Shown one piece after another: positions 6,546 through 42,183 of a stretch of DNA of 64,000 nt. The notes below the pieces were generated by a model. The model was not told the origin of the DNA. It saw only the letters and a list, made by a program, of their open reading frames with translations, and ran no database searches. Numbering within the stretch: the stretch's first letter is position 1; every line of letters begins with the position of its first letter. This stretch comes from an uncultured bacterium (GTDB lineage Bacteria; Bacteroidota; Rhodothermia; Balneolales; DATFMH01), in contig CAWANF010000001.1 of the NCBI GenBank assembly GCA_963783355.1, positions 326,776-390,775 on the forward strand, in the 5' to 3' direction. A program made the translations under genes and the position numbers.

Positions 6546-6567
6546 TTGTTAATTCTGAAAATGTGTT

Positions 6568-6608
6568 AAGCCCTGACTGAATTAATATTGGTCAGGGCTT
6601 TTATTTTA
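6568..6608 (+). terminator. Rho-independent terminator after the secretin gene
   Basis: Perfect 10-bp stem aagccctgac (6568-6577) / gtcagggctt (6591-6600) followed by ttttatttt. Confidence 0.7.
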
Positions 6609-7467: not shown

Positions 7468-7541
7468 TAGTAGTATCACGGATTTGGGTATGTTTAATAA
7501 AATTGAAAATAGAAACCAAAAAACTCAGATGAGGGGTCGTT

Positions 7542-27252: not shown

Positions 27253-28602
27253 TTACGATCCCGTTAAATTGGTATACTGCAGCTGAGCGTTCAATAAATT
27301 CTGCAGCGCTTGCTGGTAATTTTGTTGATCATTACTGTACTGAATTTCGGTATTCAACAACTCATTTAACTGAACCAGGCCTAAATCATAACGTTTTTGC
27401 TGGGTCATCAGCTTCTGTTCAGTGAGCTCCATATCAGATTTTAAAATGCGTGTTTTCCGCATGGCAATGTCAATATTCCGGCGGCCAATGACTTCCTGTT
27501 CCGGGAATTGCCGGATAAAATTCTGAACCTGGTTGTCCAGTTCTTTTCGCTTGATATCCAGCTTCTGTGCATCGGCACTTTTTTGTAAGCCGTCAAAAAT
27601 GGGCAGATTCAGGTTCAACCCGATATAACTTTGTCCGTACCAGTTTTGTGCATTACTTAAATTCAACCGGTCATTGAAATACTGCGACCCGAGGAAAGCG
27701 TAAGCACTGAGTGTAGGCAGATAATTTCGACGGTTTTCCAGGATACTTTGAGTGTTGAGATTTTTTTGAATCTGAAGTGATTTCAGTTCCGGAACCGCCT
27801 GTACATTCGGGGATGCTTGTTGAATATCCGAATCATTCTCCCTGACCAATTGAATTAAGGTGGAATCACCCAGTTGAAGTGTTTGTTCGGCCGGGAAACC
27901 AATATCCAGTTTCAGCTGAGCCAGGCTGTTGACATAATCCAGGCTGTCGGCGGAAACCTGCTCCTTTTGATTCCGGAATCGCACTTCGACCTGGTGGTAA
28001 TCGAAGGTATTTATCTGTTTATTCTCATAACGTGACCGGCTGATAGTAAGCAGTTTTTCGTAATGAGCCAGATTCCTCTTCGATAGCGTGGATTTTTCCC
28101 GGCTGACAAGCGCCGAATAATAATCTTGCCGGATAATTAATTCCGTATTTTTTTTCTGCAGATCGATCTGGTTCTCTGCAAGATGTTCATTCACTTTCGC
28201 CTTTTGAATGGAAGAAATCAGGGACGGATCAAAGATTTTCTGCTCGGCTTTTATCCCAACATTAATATCATTTGTGGAACCAAAACGGACTTTAATATTC
28301 TGACCTGGTTTCCCAATGATTGCGCCAGGAAGAATCGTTGTAGGCAGTTTCAGATAATTACGATAGTCACCGGTCGCAGAAATTTGAGGAAAATATCTCC
28401 GTATCTGGCTTTGAGTCTCTTTCTGATAAAAGGAGACGTCCAGACGGGCATTAGCCATACTCGTACGATGTTTGAGTCCGTATTGAATGGCTTCGTTCAG
28501 ACTCATTGTTGTTCCTGTCATTTGTGCCAGGCTTATTAGAGGGAAAGCAAGTAACGACAACAATAGTAAAATAAATTTCTCTTTCACTTTGGATGTTTTC
28601 AT
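27253..28602 (-). CDS. TolC-family outer membrane efflux protein
   Basis: 449 aa with a signal peptide. The sequence shows the typical TolC start (LSLNEAIQYGLKHRTSMANARLDV) and the duplicated coiled-coil/beta architecture. It is the last gene of the exporter operon. Confidence 0.8.
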   Translation of the reverse strand: MKTSKVKEKFILLLLSLLAFPLISLAQMTGTTMSLNEAIQYGLKHRTSMANARLDVSFYQKETQSQIRRYFPQISATGDYRNYLKLPTTILPGAIIGKPGQNIKVRFGSTNDINVGIKAEQKIFDPSLISSIQKAKVNEHLAENQIDLQKKNTELIIRQDYYSALVSREKSTLSKRNLAHYEKLLTISRSRYENKQINTFDYHQVEVRFRNQKEQVSADSLDYVNSLAQLKLDIGFPAEQTLQLGDSTLIQLVRENDSDIQQASPNVQAVPELKSLQIQKNLNTQSILENRRNYLPTLSAYAFLGSQYFNDRLNLSNAQNWYGQSYIGLNLNLPIFDGLQKSADAQKLDIKRKELDNQVQNFIRQFPEQEVIGRRNIDIAMRKTRILKSDMELTEQKLMTQQKRYDLGLVQLNELLNTEIQYSNDQQNYQQALQNLLNAQLQYTNLTGS

Positions 28603-28612
28603 AAACTTTCTT

Positions 28613-29734
28613 TTACGTTCTGAAAATTCGGGCCGGTTCCACTTTTCGGATGCGACGTGATGCGAACAGGGAACCGGATAGTGAAATGAGCAATGTGATG
28701 ATGAAAAAGATGAGCCACTCCAAAAAGTTATAATGATAGCGGACGCCGGCGTTCTGGATTCCCTGGCGAAAACCTTCCATCAAAACACCACCGATGGCAA
28801 AACCTATAGTCGCGATGATCAAAGCCTGTATGACAATCAATTTAGTGATATATCCGTTTTTCGCGCCGATGGCTTTCATAGTGGCATAATCTTTCAGGCG
28901 GTCTATGGCAGAAGAATAGAGCGTCAGCCCGATGATGACAATACCGGAGATGACGGCGAATAAAATCAGGGTTCCGATCGAAGCGCCGATCCCGCTGGAA
29001 GACAGGATGCTGCTGACTGTAGAAGCTGAAAATTTCTGTGAAGGCCAGGCACGAACTCCGGTTATTGTCGTATTAATTCTTTGAACCACAGCTTTCACCG
29101 AAGCTCCATTTTTGACATTCACAAGGTAAGCGCTCACCTTGTTGGCAGGAAACTTACTTAAATAGCGGGCACGGCCAAGCGTTGTGAAAATGTAATTGGA
29201 TCCAAATCCGCGGGCACCATTGGTGAGCATATTCAATTGAACTAATTTCCCGCCAATTTCCAGTTCATCACCATATTTCAATCCCTTAAGGTTTTTAATA
29301 TCAAACTTATCTGCCGAGACGGAACCTTCCTGCATCAACGATTTATCGCTGCCTTTATAAATATTCCAGGGCCCGCCAACGAAATAGGGTGGCTCCGAAC
29401 CAATCAAAACGACCGGAGACGTATCGCCGTTTTCTGTTTTTAGCTGTGAACCGGTAACGATGATTGGGTATACATTTTTCACACCTTCAATAGAATGCAA
29501 TTCGTTGCCGATACGGACGTCTAAATCGGAAAGACGGTTGACATCGGTAACAGAATGATCTACGACCCAGACATCGACCCCGGAATGATCTACGAGACCA
29601 GACATAGTTCCTTTGAGAAAAACGAATATTCCGCTTTGCTGACCTATCAAAAAGATGGCTACAATCACACCCAAAATCGCACCTACCGATTTGGGCTTGT
29701 CGTACATCATAAATCGCCAGGCTGTTCTTAGCAT
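28613..29734 (-). CDS. ABC transporter permease, FtsX/MacB-like (DevC-like)
   Basis: 373 aa. The layout is an N-terminal TM helix, a large periplasmic domain, then three C-terminal TM helices (FtsX-like), with the MacB/DevC-type start MLRTAWRFMMYDKPKS. Confidence 0.8.
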   Translation of the reverse strand: MLRTAWRFMMYDKPKSVGAILGVIVAIFLIGQQSGIFVFLKGTMSGLVDHSGVDVWVVDHSVTDVNRLSDLDVRIGNELHSIEGVKNVYPIIVTGSQLKTENGDTSPVVLIGSEPPYFVGGPWNIYKGSDKSLMQEGSVSADKFDIKNLKGLKYGDELEIGGKLVQLNMLTNGARGFGSNYIFTTLGRARYLSKFPANKVSAYLVNVKNGASVKAVVQRINTTITGVRAWPSQKFSASTVSSILSSSGIGASIGTLILFAVISGIVIIGLTLYSSAIDRLKDYATMKAIGAKNGYITKLIVIQALIIATIGFAIGGVLMEGFRQGIQNAGVRYHYNFLEWLIFFIITLLISLSGSLFASRRIRKVEPARIFRT

Positions 29735-29739
29735 ACCAT

Positions 29740-30717
29740 TTACTGATTTATGTGAATGAATACATTTACCCGCGAACCGATCAGGACCGGTTTGTGCGTG
29801 TCCAGGGCAATAGTGACTTTACGAACCCTGCGGTCTTCAAAATCGGATGGCTCATCCGAGAATATGGATTTCTTGCTCAAAGCCGGTGCCAGGTAGACGA
29901 TTTTTCCTGCGCCTACGGTATCTTGCTGCGCATACAGGCTGATGGTTGCTTTTTGTCCGGGTTTTAATTTTCGGGCGAATAGTTCATCGACTTCGGCTTT
30001 CACTGCCAGTGGTCCGGATGGAGCGAAATCACCAAATGTCTGATATGCTTTTACATACGATCCTTCATTAATATCCATGTTCAGGATAGTTCCATTGCTT
30101 AAGGCACAGATAAACCGGCGTGAAAGATCGACACTTGCCTGACCCAGTTCAGCCTTTAGCTCCCTCAGCCGGCTCTGTTGTGATGAAAGCTGATCCTTAA
30201 GTTCCTGCATCTTGCTGGAACCCTGTTCAAATGCAAGTCGGGCGTCATCCACATTCTGTCCTGATTCAGCCTGAGTTTGATACGCTTTTTTAAGCCGTTC
30301 GTAATATTGTTTTTTGTTTTGATAATTGATCCTGGCCGAATTTATCTGCGCTTTCACCGATTGGATGGCCCGTTTTTGGGTTTCAACCTGCGCCTCCATT
30401 TGTTGTTCTTTATACTTTTGTTCAGCATGATTCAAAACGATGATGGTATCACCTTTTGCAAGTGTATCACCTTCCTGCGCAACTTTTCGGATTACAATAC
30501 CGTCCACTTCCGAGCTGAGTTTAATCATATCTCTGAGCGGCTCGATCCGGCCAAAACCAGCTACGGTATTAACATGTGTTACATCTATTGGTGGCGCTGA
30601 TGATTCTGCTTTTTTCCCATCTTTTGTATTACATGAGATCAACAACAGCATAAAGCTGCCAATAAGAACGAATCGGAAGTAAATTTTCCATTGATATATC
30701 ATTGTATTCATATTCAT
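29740..30717 (-). CDS. HlyD-family periplasmic adaptor (DevB/MacA-like)
   Basis: 325 aa with lipoprotein-like signal LLLISC, a lipoyl-like motif (VAQEGDTLAKGDTIIVL), a long coiled coil and a beta-barrel end. The gene overlaps the ATPase stop (30714-30717). Confidence 0.8.
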   Translation of the reverse strand: MNMNTMIYQWKIYFRFVLIGSFMLLLISCNTKDGKKAESSAPPIDVTHVNTVAGFGRIEPLRDMIKLSSEVDGIVIRKVAQEGDTLAKGDTIIVLNHAEQKYKEQQMEAQVETQKRAIQSVKAQINSARINYQNKKQYYERLKKAYQTQAESGQNVDDARLAFEQGSSKMQELKDQLSSQQSRLRELKAELGQASVDLSRRFICALSNGTILNMDINEGSYVKAYQTFGDFAPSGPLAVKAEVDELFARKLKPGQKATISLYAQQDTVGAGKIVYLAPALSKKSIFSDEPSDFEDRRVRKVTIALDTHKPVLIGSRVNVFIHINQ

Positions 30718-31397
30718 GATTGATATTGAATCATACCGTTTTCCAGTTCAATGATTTTGTCAGCATACTCTTTCAGCCGGATGTCATGTGTAACACAAAT
30801 CAGGGCTTTATCTCGCTGTTTAGCCAGTTCTCTTAATTCTTCCATCACAATTTCAATATTCTTCTGGTCCAGAGCCGCGGTTGGTTCATCGCATAAAATA
30901 AGTGGTGGATCCGTGACCAGGGCACGGGCAATAGCCACACGCTGCTGTTGTCCGCCGGACAATTCCTTAGGCTTAAAATGCAGCCGATCCATCATTCCAA
31001 CCATTTCCAAAGCGTTCCGGGCTTTCATCAGAGCTTCCTTTTCAGATATCTTCATGAGCTGAAGAGGGAAAAGTACATTTTCGAGAGCCGTCAGTGGCGC
31101 AATCAGGTGGATCCCCTGGAAGACGAAGCCGATGTTATTCAGCCGTAATTCTGATAATTCATCATCGCTTAAATCATTCGTACAAACATCATTTAAGAAG
31201 ACTTTACCTGAAGTAGGATAGATGACGCAACCTAAAAGAGAAAGAAGGGTTGTTTTTCCGGAACCGGACGGGCCAAGTATCAACAATAGTTCATTGCGAT
31301 GCACGGAGATACTGGTATGATCCAAAGCTTTGACGATGGTATCGCCGCTTTTAAATTCTTTGGTTACCTCCTGCAGTCTTGCAACGACATTGTTCAT
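30714..31397 (-). CDS. ABC transporter ATP-binding protein (MacB/LolD/DevA-like)
   Basis: Walker A GPSGSGKTTLL, signature LSGGQQQRVAIARAL, Walker B LILCDEPTAALD, H-loop VTHD. Confidence 0.9.
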   Translation of the reverse strand: MNNVVARLQEVTKEFKSGDTIVKALDHTSISVHRNELLLILGPSGSGKTTLLSLLGCVIYPTSGKVFLNDVCTNDLSDDELSELRLNNIGFVFQGIHLIAPLTALENVLFPLQLMKISEKEALMKARNALEMVGMMDRLHFKPKELSGGQQQRVAIARALVTDPPLILCDEPTAALDQKNIEIVMEELRELAKQRDKALICVTHDIRLKEYADKIIELENGMIQYQS

Positions 31398-31632
31398 TTA
31401 CGTGATCCCTGAATAACTAAATGTTTAAAATGAATTCATAAATATAAGGTATCAGGATTTAATAATACAATGAAAACATTTAAATATTATCTATATATTA
31501 CGATATAATAATATTAGGAACCGCATTATGTACGTTCTCGTAAAGCAAACAGCAGAAAGAGTTGAATTTGATTTAGTATAAACCCGCAGGTAAATATTTT
31601 ATTTACTTTCATTATTTTGATCCGGAAAAACA

Positions 31633-32322
31633 GTGACAAATATGAATAAACGCTACGATTTACTTAAGGAAGTAATCGAATTGATGGGCCGGTTCGAAGA
31701 AGAATCCGGTGATGATAAAATCGATCTGCTTTCGTTTACGCTATGGCTGAATGAATACCTGGACAGTAAAGGGTACCAGGTAAAAACCGGAAATGGTAAA
31801 GTTACGGATTCGCCGCAGGTTCTGGGATTTGACTATACGATGGAAGCCAAGATATCCACTTTGGTGACCGGTTTATTCAAATATGCAAAACATTATACGA
31901 AATACGCTCTCGATGGAAGTCCCCTGGTCACGATGGATGATTTTGGCTTTTTGGCTTCTCTTGCCTATAACGACAGCATGACTAAGACGGAATTGTGTAA
32001 TCACAACTTACTGGAAATTACTTCCGGAAACGAAATCATCAAACGGCTGCTTAAAAACAAATTGATTGAGGAGTATAAAGATCCGGATGACCGGCGCTCG
32101 AAGCGGGTCAAAATAACAGACGCGGGTAAGAAATTATTGATTCAGACCTTTTCTAAAATGGATAAAGTCTCCCGGATTGTGGCCGGGAACCTGGGGACAG
32201 AAGAAAAAATCGAATTACTGACTATTCTTAATAAGCTCGACGATTTTCATAAAGTCATCCATGATAACGACTGGAAATCGGATATTGATGATATTTCACA
32301 AAAATATCTGAAGAATTCCTGA
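31633..32322 (+). CDS. MarR-family winged-helix transcriptional regulator
   Basis: MTKTELCNHNLLEITSGNEIIKRLLKNKLIEEYKDPDDRRSKRVKITDAGKKLL is the MarR HTH plus wing (D-x-R). The gene is divergent from the exporter operon. ATG 31642 is an alternative to the GTG at 31633. Confidence 0.7.
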   Translation: MTNMNKRYDLLKEVIELMGRFEEESGDDKIDLLSFTLWLNEYLDSKGYQVKTGNGKVTDSPQVLGFDYTMEAKISTLVTGLFKYAKHYTKYALDGSPLVTMDDFGFLASLAYNDSMTKTELCNHNLLEITSGNEIIKRLLKNKLIEEYKDPDDRRSKRVKITDAGKKLLIQTFSKMDKVSRIVAGNLGTEEKIELLTILNKLDDFHKVIHDNDWKSDIDDISQKYLKNS

Positions 32323-32362: not shown

Positions 32363-32491
32363 TTACCACGCCAATGTCATCTCCGGTCCAGACCGGGGAT
32401 CCAATAAAGCGGAGATTGTGCAGTTAATGTTAGGATTATCTGAGAACGCGCACACAACAATCCCGGTCAAAATATTATTTGTAATGGACAT
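32363..32491 (-). CDS. Candidate 42-codon ORF directly downstream of the GCS2 ligase gene (speculative)
   Basis: ATG (32491) to TAA (32363-32365) translates as MSITNNILTGIVVCAFSDNPNINCTISALLDPRSGPEMTLAW. It starts 21 nt after the GCS2 stop on the same strand. The stretch looks less AT-rich than other intergenic DNA here. There is no convincing Shine-Dalgarno motif and I recognise no homology. Confidence 0.2.
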   Translation of the reverse strand: MSITNNILTGIVVCAFSDNPNINCTISALLDPRSGPEMTLAW

Positions 32492-32512
32492 CTTAACAAT
32501 CTGAAAGATGAT

Positions 32513-33754
32513 TTACGGAATGAACATGGTTCCTGATGCCAGATGATGGCATAAACTGCGGTACGTATTTTCAATAATATCCTTGTCAGGTTGATTCCCG
32601 ACTGATTTTATAATTCGTTCGGAAAGCGTACCATGGTCCAGGATAACTTCCAACGGAGCCCGAAATAATTCATTTTCACGTTTCTTGTAAGGAAGAATTT
32701 CATCAACAATGTGACGCCACAAATCCCGGATGGATATACTGTTTCGGTTCGTGATTCCAAATTGGATAAGAAAATCAGGATCCGAAATCACCGTTTCAGA
32801 GCCTTTTTTTATGGTATTAATCAGAATTGAAGACAGGTAATGTTCCGACCACTTTTTTTGATCCTCGAAGCAGGTCCAACGTTCATTGACCAGTGCTTTT
32901 AAAGTTGAAGTAATGATATGGACGATAGCTAAATCTGCCAGTGGGCATTCCTGGATATCGAGCACGCGTATCTCAATGGCACCCCGATCGAAACGGGCAA
33001 TAGCACCCCGGGAATTCAGCCATTCTTCCTGCAGTATTCCCTCTAAATCAAAAGGAGCAATATCGCGGTAAATCGGTTTCAGAATCTTATCCTGATATTC
33101 CTGCAATGTCGTAACGGCCTCGGGAACGACCTGTCCGGTAATGGAAGGGATTTTGATTTGATTTTTCCGGTAATACTCGAGCCGTGTATCCCTCAGACCC
33201 GTAATTTTTCCTTCAATAATGGGAGATGATGCTGAAAGTGCAGGTAATAAAGGCAAGAGCAGGCGAATAGCCGTATGGAGTTTTCCAAATTCAAGATCAG
33301 ACGCAAAAGGCAGGTTGATATGCGTACTTTGCAGATTCGACCAACCGTGTCCGGTGCAATCAAAAATGCGATTGTAGGAATGATAGATCGCAGTTTGTTC
33401 ATGAGGCCAAAGTTGAGCGTCTATATTTGGATTCATAAACGGATGAGCAGCTGTCGGCATGAGTTGCGCATTAAAATCTTGCAGAATAGCATTTATTTCA
33501 TCGATACTGTTTTGAAAAGCATCAGGGAATATTGAAATATCTTTTGCCGGACCGTTCGTTTTTATCTCGACGACATGTAGAACCAGTTCATTCGACCATG
33601 CCACAAGTCCGCGATCAACTTCATTCACATAGGTTCCCGCCACAGATTCGAGTACCTTATCGGCGATAGGAGAGACATTTAGCGTGTCTTTATCGACTAT
33701 CATGTATTCGAGCTCAACACCATAGGCTTCAAAGAGGTGGAGTGGATATTTCAT
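32513..33754 (-). CDS. Glutamate-cysteine ligase family 2 (GCS2 / YbdK-like carboxylate-amine ligase)
   Basis: 413 aa. The sequence FEAYGVELEYMIVD...WSNELVLHVVEIKT...HINLPF...IEIRVLD follows the GCS2 pattern. The start overlaps the ATP-grasp stop (ATGA at 33751-33754). Confidence 0.8.
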   Translation of the reverse strand: MKYPLHLFEAYGVELEYMIVDKDTLNVSPIADKVLESVAGTYVNEVDRGLVAWSNELVLHVVEIKTNGPAKDISIFPDAFQNSIDEINAILQDFNAQLMPTAAHPFMNPNIDAQLWPHEQTAIYHSYNRIFDCTGHGWSNLQSTHINLPFASDLEFGKLHTAIRLLLPLLPALSASSPIIEGKITGLRDTRLEYYRKNQIKIPSITGQVVPEAVTTLQEYQDKILKPIYRDIAPFDLEGILQEEWLNSRGAIARFDRGAIEIRVLDIQECPLADLAIVHIITSTLKALVNERWTCFEDQKKWSEHYLSSILINTIKKGSETVISDPDFLIQFGITNRNSISIRDLWRHIVDEILPYKKRENELFRAPLEVILDHGTLSERIIKSVGNQPDKDIIENTYRSLCHHLASGTMFIP

Positions 33755-35226
33755 AGCCAGTTTTTCCTTTTGCTTTCTTCAATTCGGTTGAAAAAGACGC
33801 GCATAATTTTATTATACAGCTCATCTTTCAGAATGGTGTCCTCCACGCCGGCATCCATACTGGGATTATCATTCACTTCAATGACGTAAGCTTTGTCATC
33901 AACCAGTTTGAGGTCAACACCATATAACCCGTCACCGATTAAGCGGGCGGCTTTTGTAGCTGTGGTCACAATTTGTTTGGGCACTTCGTTTAAATGGAAA
34001 GTTTCAGCGCGTCCGAATCGGCCGGATCGTTTCTTTTGCCAGTTCATGATTTGCCAGTGGCCGGGAGCCATAAAATATTTGCAGGCATAGAATGGTTCGC
34101 CTTCCAGCACACCAATTCTCCAGTCGAATTCGGTGGGCAGATATTCCTGCGCGATAATCAGATCCGAATCTTCCAGCAGTTTTTCCAGCATTTGTTTTAA
34201 TTCATCCGGTGTCTTTGCTTTTACGACGCCCTGGGAAAATGAGCTGTCCGGTTGTTTCAGGATACAGGGCAGGCCCAGAGTTGGAATGATACTGGAAACA
34301 TTGTCTTTGTTGACAATAACAGTTTTAGGTATGGGAATGCCTGCTTTCACTAAGCATTCTGCCTGGAAGACTTTATTGGTGCACCTCACAATGGATAATG
34401 GATCGTCAATAACTACGAGACCTTCGGCAAATGCCTTGCGGGCAAATCGATAAGTATGATGATTTACAGCTGTAGTTTCCCTGATGAAGAGGGCATCAAA
34501 TTCGGAGATACGGTTATAATCATCTTTTGTAATGAACTCAGTGTAGAAATCAAGGGCATGAGCTGCTTTCACAAAACGCTGAAGAGCTTTTTCGTCGGAT
34601 GGAGGTGCCTTTTCTTCAGGATTGACCAGTATGGCCAGATCATAAATGGTTTTTCTCTTCTTAATCTTTGCGGTATGTGGATTACTGAAAAATTCTTTAG
34701 CAAATTCCAACAGATAGGGTTGATGGGCATCGGGAACTTCATTCAAAGAGATAGCCGATACATTCTGCAACACCCATACCTCGTTCTTTTTATCCCGGGC
34801 AAAATTCACCCGCAATAGCGGTGCGGTGAACAATCCAAACAGTTGTTTGGAAAGACGATCATATTTTTTTGCGACGTTTTTACCGAAGTAAATGCTTAGT
34901 GTAAATTCATCAGAATGGATATCATGCAGACTTTTTTGAATCATGCCATCCAGATCGTCCGATAAAACACGAATAATCGTTTGATATTTCAGGTCCTGTA
35001 TAGTCGTAACATTAGGAACGGCCTGATGCCCTCGCGCTTCTGCAAGCAGGGAAACATAATAACCGGATGTTTGGTAACGATATGATTTGCACAAATTATA
35101 GACTTTGGCATTCTTCAAATCCACATACCTTGGATCTGCAAGATAAGCTTTTGCAGAAATGACTTCGACATTTGGGACGTCCAGGTTCCAATCCTTAAGA
35201 TTTTGGGTTACAACAAGCAGCGACAT
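33751..35226 (-). CDS. RimK-type ATP-grasp ligase with a long N-terminal extension (RLAN-like)
   Basis: 491 aa. The C-terminal ATP-grasp core shows LPCILKQPDSSFSQGVVKA, IIAQEYLPTEFDWRIGVLEG, YGVDLKLVDDKAYVIEVNDNPS. The first ~200 aa resemble the N-terminal domain found in a RimK subfamily. Confidence 0.85.
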   Translation of the reverse strand: MSLLVVTQNLKDWNLDVPNVEVISAKAYLADPRYVDLKNAKVYNLCKSYRYQTSGYYVSLLAEARGHQAVPNVTTIQDLKYQTIIRVLSDDLDGMIQKSLHDIHSDEFTLSIYFGKNVAKKYDRLSKQLFGLFTAPLLRVNFARDKKNEVWVLQNVSAISLNEVPDAHQPYLLEFAKEFFSNPHTAKIKKRKTIYDLAILVNPEEKAPPSDEKALQRFVKAAHALDFYTEFITKDDYNRISEFDALFIRETTAVNHHTYRFARKAFAEGLVVIDDPLSIVRCTNKVFQAECLVKAGIPIPKTVIVNKDNVSSIIPTLGLPCILKQPDSSFSQGVVKAKTPDELKQMLEKLLEDSDLIIAQEYLPTEFDWRIGVLEGEPFYACKYFMAPGHWQIMNWQKKRSGRFGRAETFHLNEVPKQIVTTATKAARLIGDGLYGVDLKLVDDKAYVIEVNDNPSMDAGVEDTILKDELYNKIMRVFFNRIEESKRKNWL

Positions 35227-35229
35227 AAA

Positions 35230-35943
35230 TTATTTAAAAGGAGGTGTTAAAATTAAAAAGTTGGCATCGTATGTGACGATTCCAAGCAGAATAGCATTTA
35301 TAAAACGTTGTATATCAACAGAATACAGGTGTCCACCCGATGGATTTTCCAGGAATGGATCATTTACAATTACTTCACGGACGCCAACGGAATATCCGGA
35401 TAAGACCACGAAATGTCCTACGGGTTCTCCGCGTAAATCATCGTAATGACATTGCGGATTACAACATTCCCGTTTGGTTCGGTACAGATACGTTGCACTC
35501 AATCCGGCTAGTATTGGTATTGATTTTCGCAGATAACGTTTTAATAAATCAGCGGTGAGCTCCTTATGGAAAACAACACCACCAAGTTTCAGGAATTCCA
35601 GATAAGCTTCGGTGGAACGATTTAATCGCGGATTTCTCTTGTATTCCAATTGTTTTTCCAGCTTTTCAATCAAATTTATATCCTTATCCATAAACCAGGA
35701 AGGATCAAAAAGCTCTAAGTTATAAGTACAGATTTTGGCTTTATATCCTCTTTTTAATGCATGAATAGCTAAATAAACAGCCAAAGTCCCACCATTTTCG
35801 AGGTAATGGACCTGATTAATTACGTCATCAAGTGAGATAGTATCCCCATAATACGCATAAACGGCATGCAAACTGGTAGGCCCGCATGTTGAATCGGTCG
35901 GCTGGGGTAAAATCTCTACATCAAATTTCTTCATTTTTCCCAA
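35230..35943 (-). CDS. C39-like (papain-fold) cysteine peptidase
   Basis: PTDSTCGPTSLHAVYAYYG is a candidate catalytic Cys context, as in C39 peptidases. GHFVVLSGY gives a candidate His, and VNDP a candidate Asp. ATG 35934 is a likelier start than TTG 35943. The stop lies 3 nt before the ATP-grasp start. Confidence 0.55.
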   Translation of the reverse strand: MGKMKKFDVEILPQPTDSTCGPTSLHAVYAYYGDTISLDDVINQVHYLENGGTLAVYLAIHALKRGYKAKICTYNLELFDPSWFMDKDINLIEKLEKQLEYKRNPRLNRSTEAYLEFLKLGGVVFHKELTADLLKRYLRKSIPILAGLSATYLYRTKRECCNPQCHYDDLRGEPVGHFVVLSGYSVGVREVIVNDPFLENPSGGHLYSVDIQRFINAILLGIVTYDANFLILTPPFK

Positions 35944-36170
35944 AGGGAAATAATTAATTGTTTACCTAAATATCCGAATTTCAATAGTTATTAGATATAC
36001 ATGAGGGCCAGTTTTTTAAAAAAATTTTCAGATTCTAATGAAATAACGGAAAATGGAATACAGAGGGAGAATGGGAAATGGTTAAAAATCAAGATTTCAA
36101 ATGTTGAATTTTGAATTGGGGAATTTTAATAAGGATGGTGCTACTCATTTCAAAGATTTAAAATATTTGC

Positions 36171-36192
36171 ATACCATAGGGGGGTATGGTAT
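36171..36192. promoter_or_regulatory. Candidate CsoR operator
   Basis: Perfect inverted repeat ATACCATA-GGGGGG-TATGGTAT located 35 nt upstream of the csoR start. A G-tract flanked by AT-rich inverted arms is the known CsoR operator style. Confidence 0.65.
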
Positions 36193-36226
36193 ATTTAGAT
36201 AAAATAAAAATTCAATTAAGTACATC

Positions 36227-36508
36227 ATGGACGCTGAAAATAGTAAAAAGGCCATTTCGAGATTAAAACGCATCGAAGGCCAGATTCGGGGTATACAGAA
36301 GATGATTGAACAGGACCGTTATTGTATTGATATCCTGACACAGACCGCTTCGATTGTTTCGGCACTGAAGGGAGTTGAAGATATGGTAATGGAACATCAT
36401 CTCCATACTTGTGTAGCCGATGCGATGCGCAGCAATGACAATGATTTAAAAAGACAAAAAATTGATGAAGTAATGACTGTGCTGAGCAAATTCAGAAAGC
36501 ACGGATAA
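36227..36508 (+). CDS. csoR: CsoR-family copper-sensing repressor
   Basis: 93 aa. The sequence LKRIEGQIRGIQKMIEQDRYCIDILTQ...EHHLHTC carries the C...H-x3-C Cu(I) ligand pattern of CsoR/RcnR (DUF156). Confidence 0.85.
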   Translation: MDAENSKKAISRLKRIEGQIRGIQKMIEQDRYCIDILTQTASIVSALKGVEDMVMEHHLHTCVADAMRSNDNDLKRQKIDEVMTVLSKFRKHG

Positions 36509-36527
36509 AGGATAAAGAGAGTATTTT

Positions 36528-39044
36528 ATGGCTGATAAAAAAACAAGTTTAGAGATAGACGGTATGCATTGTGCCAGCTGTGTGGCATCCGTTGAAAAAT
36601 CATTGAAAAAGCTGGAAGGTGTAAAGATAGCCAATGTGAATCTGTCTACAGAATCGGCTTCTATTGAATTTGATCCGGAGAAGGTAGATTTGGAAGCCTT
36701 TAAAAAAGCGGTGGAAGATGTAGGCTACGAGGTTCGGGACAATACGGTCAAGCAGACTTTGCGGATAGATGGTATGCATTGTGCCAGTTGTGTGGCTTCA
36801 GTTGAAAAAGCTTTGAAAGGAATTGAAGGTGTTCAGAACGCGACTGTTAACCTGGCGACCGAAACAGCACAGATAACATTTAATCCTAAGTATGTATCGT
36901 CGGCAGATTTTGTTTCGGCTGTGGATAACGTCGGGTATGAAGTTGTTACCGATGAACAGGAAGACGAAACCCAATCGGCTGCGGAGCTGGAACACGATAA
37001 GGATCAAAAGAAGATTGATCAGGCCGCGAAACGCATGTGGTGGTCGTGGGGGGTGACAATTCCCATCATCCTTTGGATGCTTCCCGAAATGATATTTGGC
37101 TACTATTTCCTGGGTAAAAAAGGCTATGATATCGGGATGATAGTTTTGTCTTCTATTGCCATTTTCTACCCAGGATGGGAGACGATTCGAAGCGCCTGGA
37201 AATCGGGATCCCACCTTGCTCCGAATATGGATGTATTGATTGCCATGGGTACATTGGCATCGCTGGCAACCGGTTTTGTTTCACTGTTCCATCAATATGG
37301 CATCGGTCCGGCGTTCCACAGTTTTGGCGGTGTCGCAGGAATGATCATGGCATTTCACCTGACCGGACGTTATATCGAGACAAAAGCCAAGGGCCGAGCT
37401 TCTCAGGCCATCAAAAAGTTACTTACCCTGGAAGCCAAAGAAGCAACGGTTGAACGTGATGGAGCGGAAATGAAAATTTCTGTCAGATCATTGCGAATTG
37501 GTGACATAATGGTTATCAAGCCGGGTGAAAAAATACCGACAGATGGAATCGTTGTAGATGGCTTGAGCAGCGTCGATGAATCACTGGCGACCGGTGAATC
37601 CATGCCGGTTGAAAAGGGAAACGGAGATTCGGTTATTGGAGCGACCATCAATAAAAATGGTGTTTTAAAAGTTAGGGCGACGAAAGTTGGTAAGGATACG
37701 TTCCTGAGCCAGGTGATCAAAATGGTGGAAGAAGCACAGGGATCGAAAGTGCCAATCCAGGAATTTGCAGACCGGATTACCGGGGTATTTGTTCCCGTAG
37801 TCATTGGTGTTTCCCTTTTGACATTAGCGGCCTGGTTACTTTTTCCGGGAGCATTTCATGGCATCGCGGTTTGGGCATCCGGATTCCTGCCCTGGGTAAA
37901 TCCAGGTATGGGAGCAACGGCATTGGCTTTTTATGCAGCAATAGCCGTACTGGTTATTGCCTGTCCGTGTGCGTTGGGACTGGCGACCCCAACCGCCTTG
38001 ATGGTCGGATCGGGTATGGGCGCAGAAAACGGTGTATTGATTCGTAAAGGAGCTGCTATCCAGATGATGAAAGATATCACTACGATTGTGTTAGACAAAA
38101 CCGGGACGATAACCGAAGGCAAGCCAGGTGTTACGGACATCATTTCCCTGAATGGAATAGCGGAAAACGATTTGCTCCATATAGCAGCGAGTATCGAAAA
38201 TAACTCTGAACACCCGCTTGGAGAAGCGATTGCCAATTATGCTAAATCCGAAAATCAACAATTGTCGAAGGTAACGGAATTTTATGCGATAACAGGCCGG
38301 GGCGTTCAGGGCAAAATAGACGAGCAACTGATACGAATCGGGACATTAAAAATGATGTCCGAGGCCGGGATAAATGTCTCTGAGGCAGCGAACGAGCAGA
38401 AAAATCAGCTTGAAAGTGAAGCTAAGACCGCCATGTTGGTGACTATCGATCAGGAACTTGCGGGAATCATTGCGGTTGCTGACAAAGTGAAGAACGACAG
38501 TAAACAGGCCATTGCCGAATTCAAAAAATATGGACTGGAGCCGGTTATGATAACCGGCGACAACGAACGTACAGCAAAAGCCATTGCCTCGGAAGTTGGA
38601 ATAGAACGTGTGATTGCCAATGTCCTTCCGGATGAAAAGGCGAAAGAAGTGAAACGTCTGCAGGATAATGGTGAGAAAGTGGCGATGGTGGGCGATGGAA
38701 TTAATGACGCCCCGGCACTGACTCAAGCCCATGTCGGAATAGCTATCGGAACCGGAACAGATGTAGCTATTGAATCTGGCGATATTGTTTTGGTTCAGGG
38801 CGAGTTAAGTGCCGTGGTTAAGGCCGTGAAACTGAGCCGGGCCACCTTCGTGAAAATCAAGCAGAACCTGTTCTGGGCCTTTTTCTATAACGTTGTGATG
38901 GTACCTCTGGCCATTTTAGGAATGATGCACCCGGTGCTGGCCGAGATTGCGATGGCTTTTAGTTCCATTAACGTGGTGACCAATTCGAGAAGGCTCCAGA
39001 AAGTAAATATTCAACCTGATTATCAATTAATACATAAGAAATAA
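36528..39044 (+). CDS. copA: Copper-translocating P1B-type ATPase
   Basis: Two N-terminal HMA domains ([13 protein letters not shown] twice), TGES, the CPC motif ([11 protein letters not shown]), DKTGTITEG and [10 protein letters not shown]. Confidence 0.95.
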
Positions 39045-39570: not shown

Positions 39571-40605
39571 ATGAATAATCGAATTACAATACGGCAAATT
39601 GCGAAGGAACTGGGTATTTCAGCTATGACGGTTTCTCGTGCACTCAATAATAAATCCTATGTAGATCCGGATACCAGAAGAAGGGTATTGGAGATGGCCC
39701 AAAAAATGGGTTACAAACCCAATCACATTGCCAGAAGTCTGACAATAAAAAAAACATATACTATCGGTGTGGTACTTCCAAAATTATCGCATTCATTTTT
39801 CCCTGATGCTATTCGTGGAATAGAAGAAGCTGCTTATCAGAGAGAATATCAGCTTATCCTGGCGCACTCATCAGAAGATGAGGTCCGGGAAAAGAAGGTG
39901 ATAGAATCATTAGTTTCAAAACGCGTTGACGGAATACTTATATCATCTGCCGAGAATATTACGGACTTACAGCTATATAAGGAATTACTGGAGGCTAATT
40001 ATCCGATTGTTTTTTTCGACCGATGGATTCCAAACCTGGAGGTAAGTTCAGTAAAAACCAACGATGAAGAAAGTATGATGATCATTACTGAGCATCTCAT
40101 TACGAAACATGGTTATACCAATATTGCACACATTAGCGGGCCGCAAAATGTTTCAATTGGTTTAGAGCGATATAGGGGATATAAAAAAGCAATGGAGAAT
40201 CATGATTTAACGATTAATGAAGAATGGGTTGTTTCAGCCGGTTTCAATGAAGCATCGGGATATGAAGCGATGAAAAAAATTCTGAATTTACCGGAGAGGA
40301 AACAGATTCAGGCTGTTGTTGCAGTAAATGACCCGACAGCGTTCGGGGCAATGGAAGCAATTTATGAGAAGGGTATGAAGATTCCCGAAGATATAGCAAT
40401 AGTTGGATTCGGTGATGATAAGCAAGATAAGCTACTGGCATCACCACTCACGACAATTCATCAACCGGCCTATGAAGAAGGTAAAAGGGCAGCACAAATA
40501 TTAATTGATTTAATGGAAGGTAAATCGAATGTAACCGAAGATATCGTAATCAAAAGTTATCTGGTCGTTCGTAATTCATGTGGTTGTAATCCGATGCAGA
40601 AATAA
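39571..40605 (+). CDS. LacI-family transcriptional regulator
   Basis: N-terminal HTH ITIRQIAKELGISAMTVSRALNNKSYV followed by a periplasmic-binding-protein-like sugar-binding core. Confidence 0.9.
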   Translation: MNNRITIRQIAKELGISAMTVSRALNNKSYVDPDTRRRVLEMAQKMGYKPNHIARSLTIKKTYTIGVVLPKLSHSFFPDAIRGIEEAAYQREYQLILAHSSEDEVREKKVIESLVSKRVDGILISSAENITDLQLYKELLEANYPIVFFDRWIPNLEVSSVKTNDEESMMIITEHLITKHGYTNIAHISGPQNVSIGLERYRGYKKAMENHDLTINEEWVVSAGFNEASGYEAMKKILNLPERKQIQAVVAVNDPTAFGAMEAIYEKGMKIPEDIAIVGFGDDKQDKLLASPLTTIHQPAYEEGKRAAQILIDLMEGKSNVTEDIVIKSYLVVRNSCGCNPMQK

Positions 40606-40850
40606 AATCAATTTTAAGCACACCTAAACATTCGAAGAGAACTGTCTATCTTAAAGATTGTAATTGTTGAATATTAATCTTTGAATGTTCATTGCCCAAA
40701 CTCATTTTTATAAGTTGTTTTATGACTTTACTTAAAAGTCTTTCAAAGTCATCCGCTGAAGTTGACGGTTTAAGACATTGGTTAATTTCAGAGTCGATAA
40801 GTCTGATATTATTGTATCAGGTATATTCATAATTGCAATTGTTTAGAGAA

Positions 40851-41420
40851 TTAAGAGGGTATATTCTGCATTGAATTAAGAATTTTCTTTGATTCCGAAA
40901 TGTAATTATATACGCTTTGGGGTTTTATATTCAATATGTTCGAGATCTCCTGTGTTGATAGACCTTCATAAAATTTTAGATAGATGATCTCCTTTTGCCG
41001 CTGGCTCATCATATTCAGGGCACTTATGAAATATTTTAATTTGTTTAATAGATCATCAGAAAAAGATGAGATATCGAAATAGGTATTATCAAGGAGATTC
41101 AAAGTGTTTTCAACATATGATTTGTTTCTTTTGGCGTGAGCATTCTGCTTCTCAATATTTTCAAAATTTTTTGCTTTAGTGAAAGAAACAGATAAGATTT
41201 GACATTATATATGTGAGACAAATTTTCGCGGTCTTCTCAAATATTCAAAAATAAATCCTGGACACTGTCTCTTATCAAATCTTTATTTGGGACTTGTTTC
41301 AGGCCGAAGGACATTAGCTTCGGATACATCAAATAATAAATCTTTGAAAGCGCTTCTTGATCGCCACTACATAAATCAGTCCAAAGTTCACTGGAGATAT
41401 CTTTATTTTTTTTCTTTAAA
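40851..41420 (-). pseudogene. Decayed sigma-70 (ECF/Bacteroidetes-type) factor gene
   Basis: Region 2 reads ELWTDLCSGDQEALSKIYYLMYPKLMSFGLKQVPNKDLIRDSVQDLFLNI*EDRENLSHIYNVKSYLFLSL, with a TGA (41237-41239) where family members normally have Trp (LNIWE). Region 4 (QRQKEIIYLKFYEGLSTQEISNILNIKPQSVYNYISESKKIL, 40851-41102) is in a different frame. I found no intact start codon. Confidence 0.6.
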
Positions 41421-41742
41421 GCAGTTTTGTGGTTGTAGAGACCATGATATTACTAATCGGATATTATTATTCGTTGAGATAAAGGTTATTTCACATGTGA
41501 TACAGATATCAATCATTAGAATTAACAAAGCGATTACAGCCATTTATATATTGAATTGGTCCAAAAACGCAATTATGGAGCTATTCAACTACATAAGTTA
41601 CCGGTAAAATACTATTCACAAATCAAACTATAACTAAAACTATTTTGAAACCGGAAGTACAAAAATTTTGGATTTTATCAGTAGAACTACGCTCTTTTTA
41701 GAGAAGTTACAGCCTTGGGTTCTCTTTCTATTTTTATTAAAG

Positions 41743-41756
41743 TGAACATATGTTCA
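41743..41756. promoter_or_regulatory. Perfect 14-bp palindrome TGAACATATGTTCA (candidate regulator site)
   Basis: The sequence is self-complementary and is followed by an extra half-site TGAACAT at 41761-41767. It lies in the AT-rich region between the LacI gene/sigma remnant and the rhamnose cluster. Confidence 0.3.
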
Positions 41757-42183
41757 TTAATGAACATTGTTTTATTAATGTAAAATAAATCATTATCATG
41801 TCAACAAATTGATTAAAAAAAATAAATAATTACTTACTGGAGTGGGATTCATTTTTTGTATTCAGAAAATAAAGTGATAACTATTTTCTGAAAAATATTA
41901 AATATTTAGATTATTTAGAGATTGTAACCATCTAAATAATAAGGCTATATAAGTAATTATCCGTTATTAAAAGAAATTTGTGTTGGGCTGATATTTTAAG
42001 TAGAAAAGCTGCAGGGATATCTCTATAAATATGATTGAGATACTTCGGGATATTAAAAGGACAGTTTTATATTCCAGGTTAATGTCATAATGAAATTAAT
42101 GTATTTATAATTTTTGTCATTGGGGTCAGAGCACCTGAAATTCAGAAGGATCATTTAAATATTGAATACTTAATATAAAATGA

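What the first reader, a model, noticed from the sequence alone, without database searches (positions are those of the whole stretch)
32363..35943. Translationally coupled C39-like peptidase / RimK-type ATP-grasp / GCS2 amidoligase operon of unknown product
Three genes are packed with 3-nt spacing and a 4-nt overlap:
- a papain-fold C39-like cysteine peptidase (candidate Cys-His-Asp triad)
- a 491-aa RimK-family ATP-grasp ligase with a ~200-aa N-terminal extension
- a GCS2/YbdK-type carboxylate-amine ligase
Two different ATP-dependent amide-bond-forming enzymes plus a peptidase, with no ribosomal protein S6 or glutathione-pathway context, is the kind of arrangement that comparative-genomic studies of amidoligases have proposed to make or tailor small peptides or peptide-tagged metabolites. 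To my knowledge no such system has a defined product. The operon lies between a MarR-controlled exporter and a copper-resistance operon, so it looks like an accessory function.
Basis: partly seen in the sequence, partly recalled or inferred. Interest (0 to 1): 0.7.

Follow-up and report, generated by a model that had tools for sequence, protein, structure and literature searches.

The report
Orphan peptide-ligase cassette with cysteine peptidase
Three tightly coupled genes (a papain-fold cysteine peptidase and two different ATP-dependent amide-bond ligases) form one copy of a self-contained enzyme cassette that is conserved across many bacterial phyla, was already flagged by comparative genomics, and still has no known product.

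Summary
On the minus strand lie a C39-like peptidase (35230-35934), an RLAN+RimK ATP-grasp ligase (33751-35226) and a GCS2 ligase (32513-33754). They are separated by a 3-nt gap and a 4-nt overlap. Catalytic residues are invariant in all three proteins.

In 80 genome loci from about 18 phylum-level lineages, the same gene order occurs in 61 of the 72 loci with enough flank. The three proteins co-evolve. A fourth gene, an FGase-type amidohydrolase, follows GCS2 in 39 of 56 loci but is absent from this window. Flanking genes are not conserved. No precursor ORF, transporter or carrier protein travels with the cassette.

None of the proteins reaches a curated equivalog threshold (RimK, YbdK/GshA, C39 exporters, graspetide, Ngg). 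The RLAN domain has no solved or detectable relative.

My best reading is a glutathione-like two-step synthesis of a small glutamate-containing peptide, with dedicated hydrolase(s). The main rival is a writer/eraser peptide tag on a protein.

However, the cassette is widespread and was already predicted (Iyer et al. 2009, cited from memory; Pfam RLAN), so this is a new member of a known, uncharacterised kind. The copper and efflux context is lineage-specific. Interest is about 0.5.

The parts
35230..35934 (-). C39-like papain-fold cysteine peptidase, 234 aa, cytoplasmic (no signal peptide), first gene of the operon
   Evidence: PF13529 at 3e-11. Q11/C17/H174/D192 are invariant in 32 homologs. 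The AF2 model has pLDDT 90. Foldseek matches C39 double-glycine peptidase domains, the PeiR isopeptidase and the phytochelatin-synthase-like Alr0975, all at about 15% identity. The ATG start matches the deposited gene call.
33751..35226 (-). RLAN + RimK-type ATP-grasp ligase, 491 aa, starting 3 nt after the peptidase stop codon
   Evidence: PF14401 at 5e-48 and PF08443 at 4e-14. Identity is about 55-60% across phyla. The catalytic residues K324/R370/D438/E450/N452 are invariant. Foldseek matches LysX/ArgX/RimK at E about 1e-16 to 1e-17, with alignments of ~300 columns to ~280-residue targets (TM ~0.8 by target, ~0.48 by query); the sequence match places the ATP-grasp part at residues ~240-468.
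34711..35154 (-). RLAN domain (residues 25-172 of the ligase) carrying the invariant motif N44-L-C46..Y51-Q52..G55-YYVSLLA..A64-R65-G66. Function unknown; inferred to be an acceptor-recognition or assembly module.
   Evidence: No solved relative was found by profile search. hhalign finds no homology to the other cassette proteins. The family has 782 representatives, almost always N-terminal to an ATP-grasp domain and sometimes preceded by a GNAT domain.
33850..34377 (-). ATP-grasp catalytic domain (residues 284-459, Pfam RimK match)
   Evidence: The RimK-PA residues R64, R189 and N262 map to the invariant residues R249, R370 and N452.
32513..33754 (-). GCS2-family carboxylate-amine ligase, 413 aa, whose start overlaps the ATP-grasp stop by 4 nt
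   Evidence: PF04107 at 3e-28. It scores below all NCBIfam YbdK/GshA cut-offs. The conserved signature is shown. A profile search reaches YbdK (1TT4) only at E=0.14.
35935..36226 (.). Divergent intergenic region shared with csoR. It presumably holds the cassette promoter, which has not been located.
   Evidence: The only element conserved with the 77%-identical relatives is the csoR-proximal inverted repeat at 36170-36188.

Best explanation
This is one copy of a self-contained, cytoplasmic, horizontally spread amidoligase cassette. It makes a small glutamate-containing peptide without ribosomes, using glutathione-like two-step logic.

Step 1 (inferred): the GCS2 ligase activates a carboxylate as an acyl-phosphate and joins it to the amino group of an amino acid. 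By family precedent the carboxylate is the gamma-carboxylate of glutamate. The product is an N-blocked dipeptide of the gamma-Glu-X type.

Step 2 (inferred): the RimK-type ATP-grasp ligase activates the free C-terminal carboxylate of that intermediate and adds one or more alpha-linked amino acids, most likely L-Glu. The RLAN domain would serve to recognise the acceptor or to assemble the enzymes.

Step 3 (inferred): the papain-fold C39-like enzyme hydrolyses or transfers part of the product, for maturation, length control or turnover. It would act as the phytochelatin-synthase homolog or the glutathionylspermidine amidase does on small gamma-glutamyl peptides. In most relatives the FGase amidohydrolase would share this role.

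What is shown: the three genes, their coupling, their intact active sites, their conservation and co-evolution as a unit, and the absence of any co-encoded precursor, carrier or transporter.

What is not shown: the identity of the substrates, the order of the steps and the product.
For: Coupling and conservation:
- Searches show the coupled genes.
- Both partners flank the ATP-grasp gene in 61 of 72 loci, and junction gaps are small in all phyla.
- The proteins co-evolve: Spearman 0.42-0.53, and 0 of 300 permutations reach the observed value.
- Even a distant RLAN ligase keeps GCS2 and FGase downstream.

All three enzymes look active.

No conserved small ORF, no recurrent flanking family among 133 neighbours and no conserved acidic C-terminus on any cassette protein were found. 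The substrates must therefore be ubiquitous cell constituents.

From established knowledge: characterised GCS2 members (GshA, YbdK, EgtA) and FGase act on free amino-acid derivatives. The RimK family also includes small-molecule alpha-Glu ligases (CofF, MptN, RIMKLA/B), and all of these appear among the below-threshold NCBIfam hits.

In variants, a GNAT domain or gene takes the position of an N-blocking enzyme next to the RLAN ligase. This recalls the logic of NAAG and NAGGN synthesis (from memory).

Solo and GNAT-fused copies sit beside ggt, a Glu/Asp ABC transporter, an aminotransferase and a CitMHS/DcuC anion transporter.

The fold relatives of the peptidase include the enzyme that forms an acyl-intermediate with glutathione.
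Against: - The closest structural relatives of the ligase (LysX, ArgX, RimK) act on C-termini of proteins, not on free peptides.
- The fused GNAT is nearest to RimI-type protein acetyltransferases, though below the cut-off.
- The best fold matches of the peptidase are leader-peptide proteases.
- 50-60% identity across phyla and the invariant RLAN surface motif would fit recognition of a conserved macromolecule.
- The metabolic-context evidence comes from a handful of solo or GNAT variants, not from the cassette itself.
- No biochemical data exist for any member.
- The assignment of Glu as the added residue is only partly supported. R249, R370 and N452 are retained, but the RimK contacts S7, R8 and S68 are not.
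Confidence: 0.4

Rival explanations
1. A writer/eraser peptide-tagging system acting on a protein. The RLAN-RimK ligase adds amino acids (poly-Glu-like) to the C-terminus or an acidic side chain of a housekeeping protein encoded elsewhere. GCS2 adds or caps with an isopeptide-linked residue, as PafA does with Pup. The C39-like peptidase, and FGase where present, remove the tag. This would parallel RimK/RimB on ribosomal protein S6 or TTLL/CCP on tubulin.
For: - The nearest structures are LysX/ArgX/RimK, all of which modify protein C-termini.
- R249, R370 and N452 match RimK residues that contact the terminal glutamates of a bound poly-Glu chain.
- The peptidase core matches peptide- and isopeptide-cleaving C39/C71 enzymes.
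- The fused GNAT is nearest to RimI.
- RLAN and all three proteins are extremely conserved across phyla.
- Ligase-plus-protease pairing is the established RimK/RimB logic (PMC10092738 and PMC11957791, listed).
Against: - No acceptor gene, carrier or conserved small ORF lies in or beside the cassette.
- The acceptor-binding residues S7, R8 and S68 of RimK are not retained.
- Scores are far below the RimK equivalog cut-off: 32 against 331 bits.
- All characterised members of the FGase and GCS2 families act on small molecules (established knowledge).
- The solo Francisella homolog, inferred from its 490-aa length alone, gave no virulence phenotype when deleted (PMC2675058).
Confidence: 0.3
2. A copper- or metal-linked function. 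The cassette makes a phytochelatin- or glutathione-like metal-binding peptide and is co-regulated with the divergent csoR-copA operon.
For: - The window and its 77%-identical relatives both place the cassette divergently next to csoR-copA(-copZ), although the other flank differs.
- A CsoR-type inverted repeat lies in the shared intergenic region.
- The peptidase fold resembles a phytochelatin-synthase homolog.
Against: - The 73% relative keeps the same distal synteny block but has no copper operon. The 60% relative has no copper operon and none of these shared flanking genes.
- No metal-related family recurs among 133 neighbours in 80 loci.
- The only conserved intergenic motif is csoR-proximal, and nothing is conserved near the cassette start.
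- The pattern fits a lineage-specific insertion inherited by descent.
Confidence: 0.07
3. A RiPP or bacteriocin locus. A C39 double-glycine leader peptidase and an ATP-grasp macrocyclase (graspetide type) would mature a ribosomal precursor peptide.
For: The C39-like fold and the Q/C/H/D catalytic set. A weak MvdC hit at 6.5e-5.
Against: - No conserved small ORF lies beside the cassette outside one genus, and those ORFs are out-of-frame shadows. The 42-aa ORF in the window is not conserved.
- The peptidase is not fused to an ABC exporter and no transporter recurs.
- PF03412 scores below its cut-off, 19.7 against 22.
- The MvdC model scores 22 bits against a cut-off of 425.
- The ligase is of the RimK/LysX type by structure.
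Confidence: 0.03
4. Three unrelated housekeeping genes that merely happen to be adjacent: true S6 glutamylation, gamma-glutamylcysteine synthesis and a stray peptidase.
For: Generic family names in public annotation, such as 'RimK family protein', 'glutathione synthase/RimK-type ligase' and 'C39 family peptidase'.
Against: - The same order and overlapping junctions occur in 61 of 72 loci across about 18 lineages.
- The proteins co-evolve.
- All NCBIfam equivalog scores are far below their cut-offs.
- The ligase carries a 190-aa RLAN domain that bona fide RimK lacks.
Confidence: 0.02

Closest known systems
RLAN-RimK / GCS2 (COOH-NH2 ligase) / papain-like peptidase / FGase gene neighbourhoods predicted by Iyer, Abhiman, Burroughs and Aravind, Mol Biosyst 2009 (PMC3268129; not held here, cited from memory), and the Pfam family RLAN (PF14401)
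   Same: The same domain architecture (RLAN fused to a RimK-like ATP-grasp) and the same partners in the same order. The occasional GNAT fusion is also seen.
   Different: The window copy lacks the FGase gene, as do 14 of the 63 loci typed by architecture. No product or substrate has been defined for the kind itself.
RimK with RimB (S6 poly-alpha-glutamylation and its trimming protease, Pseudomonas)
   Same: A RimK-type ATP-grasp fold with conserved catalytic and terminal-carboxylate contacts. A ligase is paired with a dedicated peptidase in one operon.
   Different: - It has an extra RLAN domain.
- It scores 32 bits against the 331-bit equivalog cut-off.
- The acceptor contacts S7, R8 and S68 are not retained.
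- The peptidase has a papain fold, not a retropepsin fold.
- A second ligase (GCS2) is present.
Glutathione biosynthesis (GshA-type carboxylate-amine ligase followed by the GshB ATP-grasp ligase)
   Same: The same two enzyme superfamilies acting in series would explain the pairing. GCS2 is the Pfam family of type-2 glutamate-cysteine ligases.
   Different: Neither protein reaches any GshA, YbdK or GshB model cut-off. The GCS2 profile reaches YbdK and plant GCL only at E of 0.1-0.2. The ATP-grasp is of the RimK type, not the GshB type.
Glutathionylspermidine synthetase/amidase, and the prokaryotic phytochelatin-synthase homolog Alr0975
   Same: Papain-superfamily cysteine enzymes that act on small gamma-glutamyl peptides. 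In Gss such an enzyme is paired with an ATP-dependent ligase (from memory). Alr0975 is among the fold matches of the peptidase.
   Different: About 10-14% identity, TM about 0.45. The peptidase here has its own ~90-residue helical insert and its core is closer to C39 domains.
LysX/ArgX with the carrier protein LysW (amino-group carrier pathway)
   Same: The best structural matches to the ligase's ATP-grasp portion, E about 1e-16 to 1e-17 and TM about 0.8.
   Different: No LysW-like carrier and no conserved acidic C-terminus is present in the cassette. No lysine or arginine biosynthesis genes are nearby.

Membership tests
RLAN-RimK/GCS2/peptidase(/FGase) amidoligase cassette (predicted, uncharacterised) | RLAN domain fused N-terminally to a RimK-like ATP-grasp domain | tested here: met
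   PF14401 at 5e-48 (163 bits against a cut-off of 25) and PF08443 at 4e-14
RLAN-RimK/GCS2/peptidase(/FGase) amidoligase cassette (predicted, uncharacterised) | GCS2-type ligase immediately downstream and papain-fold peptidase immediately upstream, on the same strand with tight junctions | tested here: met
   for the window. The same layout occurs in 61 of 72 loci.
RLAN-RimK/GCS2/peptidase(/FGase) amidoligase cassette (predicted, uncharacterised) | FGase-family amidohydrolase after GCS2 (the majority form) | tested here: not met
   No FGase homolog anywhere in the 64-kb window. It is present in 39 of 56 relatives. The 3-gene form is a recurrent variant (14 loci, plus the 77% relative).
RLAN-RimK/GCS2/peptidase(/FGase) amidoligase cassette (predicted, uncharacterised) | Catalytic residues intact in all enzymes | tested here: met
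Bona fide RimK (ribosomal protein S6 L-glutamate ligase) | Score above the curated equivalog/subfamily cut-off; ~300-aa single-module protein | tested here: not met
   NF007764 scores 32 bits against 331. TIGR00768 scores 83.5 against 143.4. The protein is 491 aa with RLAN.
Bona fide RimK (ribosomal protein S6 L-glutamate ligase) | Residues that contact the poly-Glu chain in RimK-PA (S7, R8, S14, R64, S68, R189, N262) | tested here: inconclusive
   R64, R189 and N262 map to the invariant residues R249, R370 and N452. S68 maps to A253. S7 and R8 map to V201 and N202 by eye.
Bona fide RimK (ribosomal protein S6 L-glutamate ligase) | The host's S6 protein ends in Glu-Glu and is glutamylated | not testable with these tools
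   rpsF is not in the window. No proteomics is available.
YbdK / GshA gamma-glutamylcysteine ligase | Score above the curated cut-off of a YbdK or GshA model | tested here: not met
   The best is TIGR02050 at 59.8 bits against 176.4. PDB YbdK is reached only at E=0.14 with a profile. The Pfam superfamily domain GCS2 is met.
C39 bacteriocin-processing (double-glycine) peptidase | Q/C/H/D catalytic set on a C39 fold | tested here: met
C39 bacteriocin-processing (double-glycine) peptidase | Fusion to, or adjacency with, an ABC exporter and a GG-leader precursor gene; PF03412 above its cut-off | tested here: not met
   PF03412 scores 19.7 against 22. It is a stand-alone cytoplasmic protein. No conserved precursor or transporter is present.
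Graspetide (microviridin-type) ATP-grasp maturase | MvdC/MdnC-type ATP-grasp with an adjacent precursor peptide | tested here: not met
   TIGR04185 scores 22 bits against 425. No precursor is present.
Ngg (N-acetylglutaminylglutamine synthetase, NAGGN pathway) | Match to TIGR03103 (GNAT + ATP-grasp) with asnO and peptidase partners | tested here: not met
   TIGR03103 (accession recalled from memory) is absent from the listed matches of the window protein and of the GNAT-RLAN-grasp fusions, for which only the best 25 of 26 families were shown
Known or candidate anti-phage defence systems (PADLOC) | Any PADLOC model hit | tested here: not met
   No hits for any of the three proteins

The most novel reading that the evidence does not exclude
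The cassette could be an unrecognised, widely distributed bacterial post-translational peptide-tagging system. An ATP-grasp 'writer' with a dedicated recognition domain (RLAN) and a second, isopeptide-forming ligase would decorate a conserved housekeeping protein. Papain-fold and FGase 'erasers' would remove the tag. This would be a prokaryotic counterpart of tubulin glutamylation or pupylation, with a new target.
Probability: 0.25. Interest if true: 0.8.

Novelty: new member of a known kind. Interest (0 to 1): 0.5.

Why it matters
This is a compact set of three or four enzymes, conserved at 50-60% identity from Bacteroidota to Planctomycetota, Nitrospirota and Spirochaetota. All its active sites are intact, yet it has no known substrate or product.

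The work here defines the minimal cassette. It shows that the cassette is self-contained, with no precursor, transporter or regulator travelling with it. It also lists the catalytic residues to mutate. That makes heterologous expression with LC-MS and intact-mass proteomics a direct route to the product.

The answer would assign a function to thousands of genes now annotated 'RimK family protein', 'C39 family peptidase' or 'carboxylate-amine ligase', and to the orphan RLAN domain. Homologs in Pseudomonas aeruginosa, Legionella and probably Francisella would be included. The product could turn out to be either a new small peptide metabolite or a new protein modification.

Tried and rejected
- The 42-aa ORF (32363..32491) as a precursor peptide: it is not conserved in any of the 80 loci.
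- A conserved small ORF beside the cassette: only out-of-frame shadows within Pontibacter were found.
- The Ngg/NAGGN hypothesis for the GNAT-RLAN-grasp fusions: no TIGR03103 hit.
- RLAN as a duplicate of the ATP-grasp module, or a relative of C39, GCS2 or FGase: hhalign probabilities are below 1%. A by-eye resemblance to the pre-ATP-grasp segment is unsupported.
- RLAN profile against PDB sequences: the best hit has E=1.6 and is chance.
- Apparent C39-RLAN and grasp-GCS2 fusions in the representative library: these are frameshift or read-through gene calls. Long 'fusion' ORFs in high-GC loci are alternative-frame artefacts.
- An in-cassette acceptor with an acidic C-terminus: none.
- A recurrent flanking function such as a transporter, regulator or metal genes: none among 133 neighbours.
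- The copper link: it is shared only with the 77% relatives and is absent at 73% and 60%.
- A defence system: no PADLOC hit.
- Plasmid carriage: 11 hits, mostly solo copies on Azospirillum chromids.
- The Iyer et al. 2009 paper could not be read.
- The Francisella FTT0178 lead gave only a negative virulence phenotype, and orthology was not verified.
- Rfam found nothing in the window.

Full report
OBSERVATION. The window carries three minus-strand ORFs at the stated place.
- A C39-like gene at 35230..35943 if read from the TTG start. The ATG at 35934 gives the 234-aa protein that public gene calls use.
- A 491-aa gene at 33751..35226.
- A 413-aa gene at 32513..33754.

GC content across the operon (0.39-0.44) does not differ from its surroundings.

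IDENTITY OF THE PARTS. Pfam assigns Peptidase_C39_2 (3e-11) to the first protein, RLAN (5e-48) plus RimK ATP-grasp (4e-14) to the second, and GCS2 (3e-28) to the third. No NCBIfam equivalog or subfamily cut-off is reached by any of them:
- RimK: 32 bits against 331.
- rimK_fam: 83.5 against 143.4.
- YbdK family: 59.8 against 176.4.
- MvdC: 22 against 425.
- PA2778-type C39: 22 against 150.

In alignments of homologs from many phyla the catalytic sets are invariant:
- Peptidase: Gln11/Cys17/His174/Asp192.
- ATP-grasp: K324, R370, D438, E450, N452.
- GCS2: E14, E16, H60, E63 and an arginine cluster.

None of the three has a signal peptide or a transmembrane segment evident in its sequence, so all are read as cytoplasmic.

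STRUCTURE. The peptidase model (pLDDT 90) has a papain fold. Its core superposes on C39 double-glycine peptidase domains (PCAT1, ComA; TM 0.72-0.77 normalised to the target). It matches almost as well the pseudomurein isopeptidase PeiR and the Nostoc phytochelatin-synthase homolog that forms an acyl-enzyme with glutathione. All matches are at about 15% identity with E of 1e-5 to 1e-3. It is therefore a family of its own, with a helical insert of roughly 90 residues between the Cys and the His.

The ligase model (pLDDT 82) matches LysX, ArgX and RimK at E of about 1e-16 to 1e-17 (TM about 0.8). These alignments span about 300 columns against ~280-residue targets. The sequence match places that ATP-grasp part at residues ~240-468.

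The N-terminal 190 residues (RLAN) have no relative in the PDB by profile search (best E=1.6). They show no profile-profile similarity to the ATP-grasp part or to the other cassette proteins. The GCS2 profile reaches YbdK (1TT4) and plant glutamate-cysteine ligase only at E of 0.1-0.2, although the alignments run through the signature motifs.

NEIGHBOURHOOD ANALYSIS. A pattern scan of one genome per species recovered more than 597 loci encoding an RLAN ligase, and the best 80 were fetched. They come from about 18 phylum-level lineages: Bacteroidota, Balneolales, Ignavibacteriales, Planctomycetota, Verrucomicrobiota, Kiritimatiellales, Omnitrophota, Thermodesulfobacteriota, Nitrospirota, Nitrospinota, Acidobacteriota, Myxococcales, Spirochaetota, Gammaproteobacteria, Tectomicrobia, Krumholzibacteriia, Sumerlaeia and Chitinispirillaceae.

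Counting only loci with enough flank:
- The C39-like gene lies directly upstream in 70 of 78.
- GCS2 lies directly downstream in 65 of 72.
- Both are present in 61 of 72.

Junction gaps cluster around -4 to +10 nt in all lineages. Pairwise-identity matrices of the three proteins are correlated (Spearman 0.42-0.53), and 0 of 300 label permutations reach the observed value. The trio is thus inherited and exchanged as a unit.

A fourth gene follows GCS2 in 39 of 56 loci, usually with overlapping junctions. It is an FGase-family (N-formylglutamate amidohydrolase, PF05013, 3e-26) protein. The window has no FGase homolog anywhere in its 64 kb. The three-gene form is the second most common architecture (14 loci against 38 four-gene loci), and the window's 77%-identical relative shares it. 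Even a distant RLAN ligase, about 32% identical in RLAN, is followed by GCS2 and FGase.

Minor forms are a solo ligase (4 loci, plus the Pseudomonas and Azospirillum plasmid/chromid records whose flanks were checked; a Legionella hit lies at the edge of a 9-kb record), C39 plus ligase (3 loci), and ligase plus GCS2 without C39 (4 loci).

In one solo locus a GNAT gene overlaps the ligase start. GNAT-RLAN-ATP-grasp fusions exist. Apparent C39-RLAN or ligase-GCS2 fusions in the representative library are frameshifted gene calls.

WHAT DOES NOT TRAVEL WITH THE CASSETTE.
- A Pfam census of the 133 nearest flanking genes found no family in more than 7 loci. Those that recur (Pmp3, 4HB_MCP) are confined to closely related Pontibacter genomes.
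- No small ORF is conserved beside the operon outside that genus.
- No cassette protein has a conserved acidic C-terminus that could act as a LysW-like carrier.
- No PADLOC model matches.

The cassette is therefore self-contained. Its substrates must be common metabolites or a protein encoded elsewhere.

THE WINDOW'S CONTEXT. An OEP/FtsX/HlyD/ABC efflux set with MarR lies on one side and CsoR plus a CopA-type ATPase on the other.

The copper operon is again divergently adjacent in the 77%-identical relatives, although the other flank differs. The 73% relative keeps the same distal block (SSB, short-chain dehydrogenase, AidB-type dehydrogenase) but has a DUF5362 gene in place of the copper operon. 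The 60% relative has no copper operon, shares none of these flanking genes, and does carry FGase.

The only conserved element in the shared intergenic region is a csoR-proximal inverted repeat (window 36170-36188), and nothing near the cassette start is conserved. I read the copper adjacency as a lineage-specific insertion inherited by descent, not as a functional link. I leave it as a low-probability rival.

MECHANISM. Shown: two different ATP-dependent amide-forming enzymes and a cysteine hydrolase or transferase are co-translated, co-inherited and catalytically intact.

Inferred: they act on one pathway. I commit, at about 40%, to a glutathione-like two-step synthesis of a small glutamate-containing peptide.
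- GCS2 forms the first amide, gamma-Glu-X by family precedent.
- The RimK-type ligase extends the free C-terminal carboxylate with alpha-linked residues.
- The papain-fold enzyme, and FGase in most relatives, mature the product, limit its length or recycle it.

The support is as follows.
- All characterised GCS2 and FGase enzymes act on free amino-acid derivatives (established knowledge).
- The RimK family includes small-molecule alpha-glutamate ligases such as CofF, MptN and RIMKLA/B, which are among the below-threshold hits.
- In variants, a GNAT domain or gene takes the place of an N-blocking enzyme next to the ligase.
- Solo and GNAT-fused copies lie in metabolic settings: ggt, a Glu/Asp ABC transporter and an aminotransferase in P. 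aeruginosa, and a CitMHS/DcuC transporter in a metagenomic contig.
- The peptidase has glutathione-acting fold relatives.

Mapping the poly-Glu contacts of P. aeruginosa RimK (PMC10092738) onto the alignment shows that R64, R189 and N262 are retained as the invariant R249, R370 and N452. S68, S7 and R8 are not retained. The catalytic centre and the terminal-carboxylate grip are thus of the RimK type, while the acceptor surface differs.

The main rival, at about 30%, is a writer/eraser peptide tag on a protein. It is favoured by the LysX/ArgX/RimK structural neighbours, which all modify protein C-termini, by the RimI-like GNAT, by the peptide-cleaving relatives of the peptidase, and by the extreme conservation of RLAN.

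The RiPP rival, the independent-housekeeping rival and the defence-system reading are essentially excluded by the tests above. The Ngg/NAGGN pathway was tested and not met.

COMPARISON WITH WHAT IS KNOWN. From memory, this gene neighbourhood is one of the amidoligase systems predicted by Iyer, Abhiman, Burroughs and Aravind (Mol Biosyst 2009), and the Pfam RLAN family derives from that work. The paper is not in the held library, so I could not verify its wording.

Full-text searches found no experimental characterisation of any member. The P. aeruginosa solo homolog is PA1345 by gene order (from memory). It appears as a 'hypothetical ATP-binding protein' with a CpxR box in a December 2025 paper (PMC12802237). 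A Francisella 'rimK' of 490 aa, presumably of this family, gave no attenuation when deleted (PMC2675058).

The system works like RimK/RimB, like GshA/GshB, or like glutathionylspermidine synthetase/amidase. It is a member of none of them: defining features of each were tested and not met (see the membership table).

VERDICT. The locus is a new member, in the recurrent FGase-less variant, of a widespread kind that has been predicted computationally but never characterised experimentally. A specialist who knows the amidoligase survey would not be surprised by it. It is still a clean, minimal and testable orphan enzyme system. Interest 0.5.

Noticed in passing
window 36170-36188 (+), in the 283-nt csoR / C39 divergent intergenic region: A GC-rich inverted repeat, CATACCATAGGGGGGTATG, lies 39 nt upstream of the csoR start. 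The consensus scan flagged it as 'terminator-like' on both strands. It is the only intergenic element conserved with the 77%-identical relatives. From memory, it resembles CsoR operator boxes. It is probably the autoregulatory operator of csoR-copA.
   Followed up: partly
window 36227-39044 versus L089-L091, L092/L093 and L095: The csoR-copA(-copZ) module sits divergently beside the cassette in the window and in the 77% relatives. It is absent from the same synteny block in the 73% relative and from the 60% relative. This looks like a lineage-specific insertion of a copper-resistance module next to the cassette.
   Followed up: yes
window ~40500-42000: GC content drops to 0.28-0.31, against 0.39-0.48 in the neighbouring genes. 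The stretch contains an 83-aa ORF (40851..41102, minus strand) that looks like a sigma-70 region-4 / LuxR-type HTH fragment. It could be a foreign or intergenic AT-rich island.
   Followed up: no
L087 (P. aeruginosa plasmid pZYPA1927, NZ_CP133752.1) 5905-7494: A solo 529-aa RLAN-RimK homolog (42% identity) has no C39, GCS2 or FGase partner. It lies next to ggt, a Glu/Asp ABC transporter, pagP and a class I/II aminotransferase. The segment looks like the chromosomal PA1338-PA1346 region carried on a record typed as a plasmid.
   Followed up: partly
L082/L083 3349-5457: A 646-aa GNAT-RLAN-ATP-grasp fusion is encoded directly after a CitMHS/DcuC-type anion transporter and a second GNAT gene. This hints at a small acidic metabolite substrate for that variant.
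   Followed up: partly
L002 2713-7700: In this Planctomycetota MAG the cassette stops after the ATP-grasp gene. Genes that look phage- or mobile-element-derived follow, including a 709-aa primase-like ORF. The GCS2 gene may have been displaced by an insertion.
   Followed up: no
window 27253-32322: A MacAB/TolC-type ABC efflux operon (ABC ATPase, HlyD-type adaptor, FtsX-type permease and OEP outer-membrane factor, all on the minus strand) has a divergent 229-aa MarR-family gene. The MarR HTH occupies only the C-terminal half (residues ~100-205), leaving an unassigned ~95-aa N-terminal region.
   Followed up: no
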